From: an uncultured Chlamydiae bacterium | GTDB lineage: Bacteria > Chlamydiota > Chlamydiia > Chlamydiales > JAJFMA01 | Assembly: GCA_963713615.1 (NCBI GenBank) | Contig: CAVQMM010000001.1 | Location: 2,464,001 to 2,528,000 of the forward strand | DNA: 64,000 nucleotides | Direction: 5' to 3' | Shown here: one piece after another, positions 36,669 through 36,945 of the stretch | Layout: each line of letters starts with the position of its first letter | Numbering within the stretch: position 1 is the first letter of the stretch | Notes under the pieces: model-generated | Told to the model about the DNA's origin: nothing | Databases searched by the model: none | What the model saw: the letters and a program-made list of their open reading frames with translations, nothing else | Translations under genes and position numbers: made by a program

Positions 36669-36708
36669 GTGGATTGATCAGACAAATAGTCTGGCTTGGA
36701 GGCCCTAA

Positions 36709-36798
36709 ATGCAATCATGCAAAATCAACAGTCTTGGTTCCTTCGTTCGCACGACCCTCCAGTCTTGCAGTCATCTCCATCATCACCATCATTGCTAA
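36709..36798 (+). CDS. hisL: His operon leader peptide MQSCKINSLGSFVRTTLQSCSHLHHHHHC
   Basis: GGAGG SD at 36698-36702; 29 codons with 6 His (5 consecutive) just before TAA; sits between the promoter and the operon. Confidence 0.85.
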   Translation: MQSCKINSLGSFVRTTLQSCSHLHHHHHC

Positions 36799-36945
36799 TT
36801 TTTTTTGAGAAGTAAGCCGTTTGGCTTAACTTGTCACATGGCCGTCAAGTACAAATTTTGCTGACTAGTTAGGCCTATGGGACATCACTTCTCGACCCAT
36901 TTTTGCGTAACTACGTATTCAACTTTTTATTATCAAGGAATTGCC

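What the first reader, a model, noticed from the sequence alone, without database searches (positions are those of the whole stretch)
36698..36945. Unannotated His-rich leader peptide without a strong classical attenuator hairpin
Seen: GGAGG SD, then ATG 36709 to TAA 36798 encoding MQSCKINSLGSFVRTTLQSCSHLHHHHHC. A T8 run follows the stop, then about 140 nt more before purH. I find only weak stems there: AAGCC/GGCTT; ATGGG/CCCAT followed by T's at about 36877-36904; and GAGAAGT at about 36807 pairing with ACTTCTC at about 36888, an alternative to the latter. The leader ORF is pyrimidine/C-rich. Established: His-codon runs sense charged tRNA-His in attenuators. Inference: His-sensing attenuation by a non-enterobacterial mechanism (Rho-dependent, translational, or a weak alternative-stem terminator), which would be unusual in chlamydiae.
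Basis: partly seen in the sequence, partly recalled or inferred. Interest (0 to 1): 0.85.

Follow-up and report, generated by a model that had tools for sequence, protein, structure and literature searches.

The report
Chlamydial histidine-operon leader peptide
A 29-codon mini-gene ending in a run of histidine codons sits in front of the histidine-synthesis operon of this chlamydia-like bacterium and of all eight related operons whose upstream DNA could be read; it likely lets a stalling ribosome gauge histidine supply, and because the usual terminator hairpin is missing, the read-out is predicted to depend on the termination factor Rho.

Summary
GGAGG, ATG 36709 to TAA 36798, six His in the last eight sense codons, T8, then 147 nt to purH.

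purH is the first gene of a complete operon, purH-hisI-G-E-D-(C~HAD~B)-H-F-A.

The operon is rare in the phylum. It was found in 9 genomes of about 750 searched, in four families.

Every locus with readable upstream DNA has the same layout (9 of 9: 8 genomes and 1 metagenome contig):
- a promoter-like site and a 5' hairpin
- an SD and ATG opening an ORF of 29-46 codons
- 4-8 His codons, one more codon, then TAA
- a hairpin starting 6-12 nt after the stop
- a 90-147 nt spacer

So this is a real His leader peptide.

No classical terminator/antiterminator switch was found. Rfam gave no match, the window has no credible terminator, and ribosome-masked folds and four tests of alternative pairing gave nothing conserved. 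Pairing of the His run with the first gene's ribosome site is no better than with other ribosome sites.

What is conserved is a C-rich, G-poor, pyrimidine-biased tract ending at the stop, exactly where a stalled ribosome would sit. rho is present.

Best guess, at about 40%: the stalled ribosome shields a rut-like tract from Rho. This is a new variant of a known kind.

The parts
36640..36668 (+). Promoter-like site, TTGCAA-17 nt-TACAAT
   Evidence: Eight of the nine loci have a TATAAT- or TACAAT-like -10 box at the same relative place; G481 has only a weaker one. This is a consensus match only and the transcription start is not mapped.
36679..36693 (+). 5' stem-loop CAGAC-AAATA-GTCTG at the predicted start of the transcript
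   Evidence: MFE folds. A hairpin at the same place in six relatives shows compensatory changes in two of its three pairs, in 2 and 3 of the 6 sequences.
36698..36702 (+). Shine-Dalgarno GGAGG of the leader ORF
   Evidence: six nt before the ATG.
36709..36798 (+). Leader ORF (hisL-like), 29 codons plus TAA
   Evidence: An equivalent ORF of 36-46 codons is present in 8 of 8 other loci with upstream DNA. All indels inside the ORF in the six alignable relatives are multiples of 3.
36772..36792 (+). His-codon run H-L-H-H-H-H-H (6 His codons), predicted stalling site
   Evidence: The other loci have 4 to 8 His in their last 5-11 codons, each followed by exactly one codon (Ser in 8 loci, Cys here) and TAA.
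36724..36801 (+). C-rich, G-poor pyrimidine-biased tract (rut-like), 78 nt ending at the stop
   Evidence: C 33%, G 13% here; C 28-36% and G 3-8% in the eight other loci; third positions of non-His codons in the last 22 codons are pyrimidines in 117 of 141 cases, against 65 of 149 in the upstream part of the same ORFs and 50-59% in the first structural gene.
36799..36806 (+). T8 run right after the stop; its last T is the base of hairpin P1
   Evidence: folds.
36806..36836 (+). Hairpin P1 (TGA.AAGTAAGCC-GTTT-GGCTT.AACTT.TCA), starting 8 nt after the stop
   Evidence: -13.7 kcal/mol, with 2.2% of 500 shuffles as stable. A hairpin starting 6-12 nt after the stop beats shuffles (p <= 0.022) in 8 of 9 loci (p = 0.09 in L008). 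Its sequence differs in the window, L011 and L016.
36837..36945 (+). Rest of the spacer. It is structured in the window only. CATGGC 36837-42 can pair with GCCATG 36943-48, which holds the purH start codon. It contains the weak hairpin ATGGG/CCCAT plus T4 at 36877-36904.
   Evidence: (36799-36950: z = -3.0; 2 of 200 shuffles as stable). Not conserved: the relatives' spacers are 49-59% U and mostly unstructured.
36946..38385 (+). purH (AICAR transformylase / IMP cyclohydrolase), first gene of the operon
   Evidence: PF01808, E 2.7e-100.
38396..45302 (+). hisI 38396-38695, hisG 38683-39537, hisE 39534-39809, hisD 39806-41047, hisC~HAD phosphatase~hisB fusion 41041-43266, hisH 43263-43838, hisF 43835-44587, hisA 44592-45302
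   Evidence: Pfam. The gene order is the same in six of the seven other genome loci, as far as each contig reaches; the seventh, G481, starts at hisI with no purH. The metagenome contig L019 shows purH to hisE.

Best explanation
The ORF at 36709-36798 is a leader peptide of the purH-his operon, and it likely senses charged tRNA-His through ribosome stalling on its terminal run of His codons. The read-out is predicted to be Rho-dependent premature termination rather than a terminator/antiterminator hairpin switch.

Shown:
- The ORF, its ribosome site and its His run.
- Its place in front of a complete his operon.
- Its presence in all 9 homologous loci with readable upstream DNA.
- A positionally conserved hairpin (P1) just after the stop.
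- A conserved C-rich, G-poor tract that ends at the stop.
- The absence of a credible intrinsic terminator in the window.
- The presence of rho.

Inferred:
- With ample His-tRNA, the ribosome would run to TAA and leave. That would expose the single-stranded C-rich tract (the pre-His codons plus the His run).
- Rho would load there and catch RNA polymerase in the untranslated 90-147 nt spacer. P1 and the U-rich stretches would act as pause sites.
- With scarce His-tRNA, the lead ribosome, and any queued behind it, would sit on exactly this tract and shield it. The spacer beyond it is C-poor in the relatives. Polymerase would therefore reach purH, whose translation then protects the operon transcript.

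My odds: about 0.85-0.9 that this is a functional His-sensing leader, and about 0.4 that the read-out is Rho-dependent.
For: - Context: a complete his operon lies directly downstream.
- Rarity by chance: this is the only His-run frame in the window, one of 48 in the genome, and the only His case in the short-ORF scan.
- Conservation of the operon: hisG was found in 1 of 41, 5 of 400, 3 of 129, 4 of 103 and 1 of 73 genomes. That is 9 distinct genomes.
- Conservation of the leader: upstream DNA is available for 8 of those genomes and for 1 further metagenome contig. All 9 carry an SD+ATG ORF ending in 4-8 His, one more codon and TAA. The peptide sequence upstream of the His run is not conserved between the window, L011, L016 and the group of six.
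- Hairpin P1: significant in 8 of 9 loci.
- No classical switch: no Rfam match; 0 terminator-like sites in the window region; no change of structure in ribosome-masked folds.
- Rut-like tract: C 28-36% and G 3-13% in the last 78 nt in 9 of 9 loci; top 1.06% of the window's genome for C minus G. Synonymous-site pyrimidine bias is 117 of 141 against 65 of 149. RNAalifold leaves the His run unpaired.
- Spacers in the relatives are C-poor, 6-14%.
- rho is present (116.6 bits against a cut-off of 27).
- Precedent: stalled ribosomes shielding a rut site in or next to a uORF (tnaC, speFL, cruR), and a possible Rho contribution even in the enterobacterial his leader. Source: PMC12360218, Table 2 and section 7, passages read.
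- A canonical strong terminator exists elsewhere in the window (26557-26594), so its absence here is not a property of the genome.
Against: - There is no experimental datum of any kind. The only RNA run holding the region gave two short contigs inside purH and no ends.
- The C-rich, G-poor composition is partly forced by the His codons (CAY).
- The tract can also pair with the purine-rich SD region in predicted folds, which would hide part of it from Rho. That pairing is no better than in shuffled sequence, so it settles nothing either way.
- The window's own spacer is neither C-poor (20% C) nor unstructured, unlike the relatives' spacers.
- Several relatives do have a hairpin followed by U-rich sequence in the spacer, so a weak intrinsic terminator cannot be excluded there.
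- Six of the nine leaders are close kin. There are about four independent lineages, not nine.
- To my recollection, every well-studied leader peptide of an amino-acid biosynthetic operon uses an intrinsic terminator. The prior therefore favours that rival.
Confidence: 0.4

Rival explanations
1. Classical-style attenuation with a weak intrinsic terminator. A hairpin plus a U-rich stretch in the spacer would stop RNA polymerase, perhaps helped by NusA or NusG. In the window this would be ATGGG/CCCAT plus T4 at 36877-36904; in the relatives, P1 or a second hairpin. The stalled ribosome would favour an alternative fold that I did not recognise.
For: This is the mechanism of the well-studied his, trp, leu, thr and phe leaders (established knowledge, recalled). 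Hairpin plus U-rich candidates exist in every locus: a second hairpin of -9 to -10 kcal/mol followed by U5 in L008, L009 and L016, and P1 followed by U-rich sequence in L010, L011 and L019. A block TTTTCGAATTTTTATTTT after P1 is conserved in 5 of 6 close relatives. A Bacteroidales his leader found here has a textbook terminator.
Against: The candidates are not homologous from locus to locus. The window's is worth -3.5 kcal/mol with a 14-nt loop and four U, and the consensus scan finds none. No mutually exclusive antiterminator was found: ribosome-masked folds keep the same hairpins; SD region against the P1 5' arm, p 0.12-0.97; SD region against the spacer, p 0.10-0.99. If P1 were the terminator, geometry gives the wrong sign. 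Only a ribosome that has reached the stop codon touches its 5' arm, which starts at +6 to +12. A ribosome stalled on His codons leaves it free (footprint size recalled).
Confidence: 0.25
2. Control of mRNA stability or processing. The single-stranded His run and the AU-rich stretch after the stop would be cut by an endonuclease, or passed by a 5' exonuclease, unless a stalled ribosome covers them. Starvation would then stabilise the operon transcript.
For: The consensus fold leaves the segment from the His run to the T run single-stranded between two structured domains, and the stalled ribosome would cover exactly that segment. Precedent: ribosome pausing at Arg codons in orf34 protects speF mRNA from RNase G (PMC6386406, abstract read). 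The sign of regulation is right.
Against: No cleavage site, RNase or 3'/5' end is known for this organism. Nothing in the sequence separates this from the Rho model. It does not explain the strong pyrimidine bias upstream of the His run.
Confidence: 0.1
3. Translational attenuation of the ermC/cat type. The His run, or a neighbouring segment, would pair with the ribosome site of the first gene, and a stalled ribosome would free it.
For: In 5 of 8 full-length MFE folds the His run pairs with the purH start region. Against shuffled ribosome sites, the duplex is unusual (p <= 0.02) in 4 of 8 loci. In the window, the purH AUG can pair with CATGGC at 36837-42.
Against: Against real ribosome sites of the other his genes in the same locus, the first gene ranks 6/9, 9/9, 2/8, 4/9, 8/8, 1/4, 3/8, 1/3 and 6/8. 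The complementarity is therefore generic: CAU pairs with AUG and UCC with GGA. It is not significant in the window (p = 0.17) or in L008 and L011. The window's CATGGC partner lies outside the reach of a ribosome stalled on the His run.
Confidence: 0.07
4. Not a regulator. The ORF is either a chance frame or a small His-rich peptide with a function of its own, such as metal binding, that happens to lie here.
For: His-rich tails bind metals in some proteins (recalled). There is no experimental evidence of regulation.
Against: 9 of 9 loci keep the His run in front of the his operon while the rest of the peptide diverges beyond alignment. About 0.0015 such frames are expected by chance in this position. 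In G481 the leader precedes hisI directly because purH is missing there, so it goes with the his genes.
Confidence: 0.05

Closest known systems
Enterobacterial his operon leader (hisL; Rfam RF00514 His_leader)
   Same: A short ORF with its own ribosome site directly upstream of the his operon. A run of His codons lies close to its stop, so the level of charged tRNA-His would be read by the ribosome. A hairpin in mid-ORF could serve as a pause signal.
   Different: No match to RF00514 in the window or in two relatives. No GC-rich terminator and no alternative antiterminator pairing. The His run is not part of any predicted stem. The first gene is purH. The phylum is different.
uORF-dependent Rho attenuation (tnaC-tnaAB, speFL-speF, cruR-bfrG)
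   Same: A translated uORF is followed by a long untranslated spacer without an intrinsic terminator. A ribosome arrested at or near the end of the uORF shields a rut site in or beside the uORF (PMC12360218, passages read). Here a C-rich, G-poor tract ends at the leader stop, and rho is present.
   Different: Those systems sense a small molecule through the nascent peptide and arrest at the stop codon. Here the arrest would come from hungry His codons, and the target is a biosynthetic operon. Rho dependence is untested here.
His leader peptide with canonical terminator in a Bacteroidales MAG
   Same: A leader ORF MKCNKTHHHHHQP lies upstream of hisG. That hisG was the closest non-chlamydial hit of the one genome-contig scan, at 34% identity.
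   Different: In L002 the leader is followed by GGGTTTGCAATACTGCAAACC plus T9, a textbook terminator. The chlamydial loci have nothing comparable. I recall leader peptides being predicted in Bacteroidetes (Vitreschak and colleagues, 2004), but I did not see that paper.
   Same: It has a strong promoter, a 35-codon ORF whose last four codons are R-V-R-R, a 139-nt spacer with no textbook hairpin-plus-U terminator evident in the MFE fold (no terminator scan was run), and then transporter genes and argG-argG-argH.
   Different: It senses a different amino acid. The pyrimidine tract lies after the stop rather than before it. There is no P1-like hairpin right after the stop in the MFE fold.

Membership tests
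Leader-peptide transcription attenuator of the hisL type | A short translated ORF with a run of His codons directly upstream of his biosynthetic genes, on the same strand | tested here: met
   Translation itself is inferred from the SD, the ATG and frame conservation.
Leader-peptide transcription attenuator of the hisL type | The His run is conserved in homologous operons | tested here: met
   9 of 9 loci with upstream DNA. These represent about four independent lineages.
Leader-peptide transcription attenuator of the hisL type | Match to the curated RNA model RF00514 | tested here: not met
   No hit at E <= 1 in window 30000-45000 or in L016 and L019. The model also misses the clear Bacteroidales leader in L002, so it is narrow.
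Leader-peptide transcription attenuator of the hisL type | An intrinsic terminator (stable hairpin plus U tract) between the leader and the first gene | tested here: not met
   0 sites in 36000-37300. The best candidate in the window is -3.5 kcal/mol with U4. The relatives have heterogeneous weak candidates.
Leader-peptide transcription attenuator of the hisL type | An antiterminator that excludes the terminator and is selected by the position of the ribosome | tested here: not met
   Masked folds are unchanged. Alternative pairings are not better than shuffles. Thermodynamic folding cannot exclude a kinetic switch.
Leader-peptide transcription attenuator of the hisL type | His-dependent change in read-through | not testable with these tools
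   No usable RNA data.
uORF-dependent Rho attenuation | rho gene in the genome | tested here: met
   PF07497 at 116.6 bits in a 529-aa frame at G000:C1:2311043.
uORF-dependent Rho attenuation | A C-rich, G-poor, mostly unpaired tract placed where the arrested ribosome covers it | tested here: met
   This is composition only; binding of Rho is not shown.
uORF-dependent Rho attenuation | Termination in the spacer that depends on Rho | not testable with these tools
   Needs bicyclomycin or Rho depletion, or in vitro transcription.
Translational attenuation (ermC/cat type) | The ribosome site of the regulated gene is specifically sequestered by a segment that the stalled ribosome covers | tested here: not met
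   (4 of 8 loci better than shuffles) is overturned, where the first gene's site ranks anywhere from first to last among real sites.

The most novel reading that the evidence does not exclude
Environmental chlamydiae carry a set of hungry-codon leader peptides (His here, Arg elsewhere in this genome) that work with no terminator hairpin at all. The ribosome stalled on the regulatory codons sits on an intragenic rut tract and keeps Rho off. This would be the first amino-acid biosynthetic operon whose attenuation is purely Rho-dependent, in a phylum where no such control has been described.
Probability: 0.35. Interest if true: 0.7.

Novelty: new variant of a known kind. Interest (0 to 1): 0.55.

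Why it matters
Leader-peptide sensing of amino-acid supply is textbook biology for Proteobacteria and has been reported for Actinobacteria and some Firmicutes (PMC2965389, passages read). [quoted passage not shown]

Here a His leader is conserved in every chlamydial his operon that could be inspected, and it lacks the hairpin switch that defines the classical mechanism. If the read-out is Rho, hungry-codon sensing and the shielding of a rut site would be combined in one simple module. That module would be easy to test in vitro.

It also says something about lifestyle. This bacterium has at least ten nucleotide-transporter genes and apparently no de novo purine pathway. Yet it keeps a regulated his pathway, with purH attached, most likely to recycle the AICAR by-product.

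My three literature searches listed no paper describing a His leader in chlamydiae. They cover open-access text only.

Tried and rejected
- Rfam: nothing relevant.
- Public reads: the only holders are low-coverage Logan contigs from peat and soil metagenomes. One RNA library gave two 151-nt contigs inside purH (37330-37480 and 37530-37680), and one DNA run gave a 256-nt contig identical to 36631-36886. There are no ends, no depth and no strand, so nothing can be said about transcription or termination.
- SD region pairing with the pre-His codons (the 'P0' stem in MFE and RNAalifold folds): not better than dinucleotide shuffles in 9 of 9 loci (p 0.12-0.61). It is compositional, purine-rich against pyrimidine-rich.
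- SD region pairing with the 5' arm of P1 or anywhere in the spacer: not significant. The window's 10-of-11 match between GCTTGGAGGCC and GGCCGTCAAGT has p = 0.10 and no counterpart in the relatives.
- His run pairing with the first gene's ribosome site: rejected by the real-site control.
- A terminator formed by the 3' arm of P1 with downstream sequence: only 4-bp CGAA/TTCG stems, read by eye from the sequences, and not conserved in L009 or L017.
- P1 as a terminator blocked by the ribosome: wrong sign.
- A scan for other leaders with runs of at least 5 in 7 identical residues: the W and L candidates precede a LysE-type transporter and two proteins without a Pfam family, not biosynthetic operons.
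- The one genome-contig scan gave only two distant hisG relatives.

Full report
**1. The observation**

- GGAGG lies at 36698-36702 and the ATG at 36709.
- The ORF has 29 codons and translates to MQSCKINSLGSFVRTTLQSCSHLHHHHHC.
- TAA lies at 36796-36798 and T8 at 36799-36806.
- purH starts at 36946. My first try with 36947 failed and was corrected.

A sigma-70-like site, TTGCAA-17-TACAAT, lies at 36640-36668. The same scan finds no terminator-like site in 36000-37300.

**2. Context**

Pfam shows that purH is the first of nine tightly packed genes: purH, hisI, hisG, hisE, hisD, a 741-aa fusion of HisC, a HAD phosphatase and HisB, then hisH, hisF and hisA (36946-45302). Together these cover every step of His synthesis.

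The genome (3.97 Mb, 99% complete) lacks purC, and no purD reaches the family cut-off. It has 12 matches to the TLC nucleotide-transporter family, which none of the 14 control genomes has. purH therefore most likely serves to turn the AICAR released by HisH/HisF back into IMP. This is inference.

Its order contains a genus of 24 species with genomes of 1.0-1.2 Mb, and it has the TLC genes.

**3. Is the His run more than chance?**

- It is the only frame in the 64-kb window with at least 5 His in 8 codons.
- The whole genome has 48 such frames in six frames. That gives about 0.0015 expected in a given 250 nt on one strand.
- A scan looked for short intergenic SD+ATG ORFs with a C-terminal amino-acid run and a gene within 400 nt. 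It returned 12 ORFs, and this is the only His case.

**4. Relatives**

hisG is rare in the phylum:

| Search | Genomes with hisG |
|---|---|
| Nearest relatives | 1 of 41 (the genome itself) |
| Phylum sample | 5 of 400 scored (one genome not scored) |
| Family f8 | 3 of 129 |
| Family f5 | 4 of 103 |
| Family f32 | 1 of 73 |

That makes nine distinct genomes.

Where the contigs reach, the gene order is the same. The exception is G481, which has no purH and starts with hisI. In G455 the contig begins inside hisI, so nothing upstream can be read.

The metagenome scan gave five contigs. One is new and has upstream DNA (L019). One is identical to G286 over the region shown. Three are too short.

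In all 9 loci with upstream DNA there is an SD+ATG ORF of 29-46 codons. Each ends in 4-8 His codons, one further codon (Ser in eight loci, Cys in the window) and TAA.

Six of the leaders are alignable with each other. All indels inside their ORFs are multiples of three. The window, L011 and L016 have unrelated peptide sequences apart from the His run. There are thus about four independent lineages, not nine.

**5. Anatomy shared by all loci**

Folds and RNAalifold on the six alignable leaders give the same order of parts:
- a 5' stem-loop, with compensatory changes
- the SD and ATG
- a GC-containing hairpin in mid-ORF, with some compensatory changes
- a pyrimidine-rich stretch of codons
- the unpaired His run
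- the stop and a T-rich stretch
- a hairpin (P1) starting 6-12 nt after the stop
- a spacer of 90-147 nt

P1 is more stable than shuffled sequence in 8 of 9 loci (p <= 0.022; p = 0.09 in L008). Its sequence differs in the window, L011 and L016. Within the close group it shows only one-sided (wobble) changes.

The predicted pairing of the SD region with the pre-His codons is not better than shuffles in any locus. I treat it as a consequence of composition.

**6. The search for a classical switch**

- Rfam finds nothing.
- Folding with a ribosome masked on the middle or last His codon, or on the stop, leaves the downstream hairpins as they were.
- A relaxed scan for a hairpin followed by U-rich sequence gives different, weak candidates from locus to locus. 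In the window it gives only ATGGG/CCCAT, at -3.5 kcal/mol with four U.
- The SD region does not pair specifically with the 5' arm of P1 or with the spacer.
- If P1 itself were a terminator, only a ribosome that has reached the stop could touch it. That would switch the operon on when His is plentiful, which is the wrong sign. This argument uses the recalled reach of a bacterial ribosome, roughly 9-12 nt past the A-site codon.
- The genome does use strong terminators elsewhere, for example a 17-bp stem plus T6 at 26557-26594.
- A Bacteroidales his leader met in passing has a textbook terminator.

The lack of one here is therefore a property of this element.

**7. The translational idea**

In five of eight MFE folds the His run pairs with the purH start region. 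In four of eight loci that duplex beats shuffled ribosome sites.

I then compared it with the real ribosome sites of the other his genes in each locus. The first gene ranks 6/9, 9/9, 2/8, 4/9, 8/8, 1/4, 3/8, 1/3 and 6/8. CAU pairs with AUG and UCC with GGA at any start site, so I reject this reading as a conserved mechanism.

**8. What is conserved instead**

- The last 78 nt of every leader are C-rich and G-poor: C 28-36%, G 3-13%, C/G 2.6-14.
- In the window's genome this tract is in the top 1.06% of 78-nt windows for C minus G.
- The bias is not only due to His codons. Among non-His codons of the last 22 codons, 117 of 141 have a pyrimidine in third position. The figure is 65 of 149 in the upstream part of the same ORFs, and 50-59% in the first structural gene. 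The loci are kin, so these counts overstate independence.
- The relatives' spacers are very U-rich (49-59%) and C-poor (6-14%). The window's spacer is less extreme (37% U, 20% C) and more structured.
- rho is present.

**9. Mechanism**

The simplest model with the right sign is that the C-rich tract is a rut site.
- When His-tRNA is ample, the ribosome leaves at TAA. Rho loads on the tract and terminates in the spacer, with P1 and the U-rich stretches acting as pauses.
- When His-tRNA is scarce, the stalled ribosome covers the tract and polymerase reaches purH.

Shielding of a rut site in or next to a uORF by an arrested ribosome is established for tnaC, speFL and cruR. The same review lists a possible Rho contribution to the enterobacterial his attenuator (PMC12360218, passages of Table 2 and section 7).

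Pausing at hungry Arg codons in orf34 of the speF leader changes the fate of that mRNA (PMC6386406, abstract).

My odds:

| Reading | Odds |
|---|---|
| Rho-dependent read-out | about 0.4 |
| Unrecognised weak intrinsic switch | about 0.25 |
| Control of mRNA stability | about 0.1 |
| Translational control | about 0.07 |
| No regulatory role | about 0.05 |
| Something else | the remainder |

That the ORF is a functional His sensor at all, I put at 0.85-0.9.

**10. Comparison and novelty**

The element works like hisL in what it senses. It fails three defining features of that family that I could test: the RNA model, the terminator and the antiterminator. It resembles the Rho-dependent uORF systems in layout, but its trigger would be hungry codons rather than a ligand in the exit tunnel.

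I found no paper describing a His leader in chlamydiae. Three full-text searches listed none. Two of the papers they listed (PMC2965389 and PMC4833913, passages read) say only that chlamydial attenuators are uncharacterised or too few to judge.

The scan itself has an earlier, unchecked note (e1-9932058) of Arg-codon leaders in environmental chlamydiae, with His look-alikes mentioned. I confirmed an Arg leader in this genome at G000:C1:1774327-1774434, ahead of three genes that I read as transporter genes from that note (I did not run them against Pfam) and argG-argG-argH. So the His leader is probably one of a set.

**11. Limits**

- No expression data are available.
- All structures are thermodynamic predictions.
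- There are only about four independent lineages.
- The promoter and the transcript start are inferred.
- The supplements of the papers cited were not read.

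Noticed in passing
G000:C1:1774327-1774434 (outside the window): A second leader-type ORF in the same genome, MNSIQQPSSSVQAGIASCYLHFFDHSSPLAIRVRR, has three Arg in its last four codons. It lies behind a perfect TTGACA-17-TATAAT promoter and 139 nt upstream of three genes that I read as transporter genes from an earlier scan note (not run against Pfam) plus argG-argG-argH. A pyrimidine tract follows its stop, and no textbook terminator is evident in the MFE fold.
   Followed up: partly
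window 36946-38385 and the whole genome: purH heads the his operon, while purC is not found and purD does not reach its cut-off in a 99%-complete genome. purH probably only recycles the AICAR made by HisH/HisF. In G481 the operon lacks purH and the leader precedes hisI.
   Followed up: partly
window 41041-43266: A single 741-aa frame fuses HisC (aminotransferase), a HAD-type phosphatase (probably the histidinol-phosphate phosphatase) and HisB (IGP dehydratase). tblastn matches the same three parts in the same order in the relatives; whether they form one frame there was not checked.
   Followed up: no
window 36251-36420 and 36430-36610: Nested imperfect inverted repeats lie just upstream of the his promoter: arms 36251-79/36392-420, 36282-301/36371-390 and 36430-71/36569-610, 80-86% complementary. 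They overlap a 104-codon frame (36188-36502) that has no Pfam match. This may be a mobile or hairpin element rather than a gene.
   Followed up: no
alignment A1 (HisG of seven genomes): HisG of G119 (family f8, genus g77) is 81-82% identical to HisG of family f5 members, but only 71-73% identical to its congeners G271 and G408. The three g77 genomes also carry three different leader sequences. This suggests exchange of the operon, with its leader, among chlamydiae.
   Followed up: partly
L017 (G451:C4:522000-538000): The his operon of G451 is broken by many frame changes in hisG, hisE, hisD and the hisC~hisB fusion, although its leader is intact with eight His codons. This could be decay or indel errors in a 63%-complete assembly.
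   Followed up: no
G000:C1, e.g. 2754372-2762575: There are twelve matches to the TLC nucleotide-transporter family, ten of them near full length and five of them in one cluster. None of the 14 control genomes has any.
   Followed up: no
L002 404-560 (Bacteroidales MAG): A His leader MKCNKTHHHHHQP with a canonical terminator (GGGTTTGCAATACTGCAAACC plus T9) lies upstream of hisG. Rfam RF00514 does not detect it.
   Followed up: partly
L016 1898-2017: A long hairpin-like element sits between purH and hisI of G408, where the other loci have 10-45 nt. It drew weak spurious microRNA-model hits.
   Followed up: no
window 36631-36886: Short contigs identical to parts of the region occur in several peat metagenome runs at very low depth. 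The organism seems to be a rare member of such communities.
   Followed up: partly
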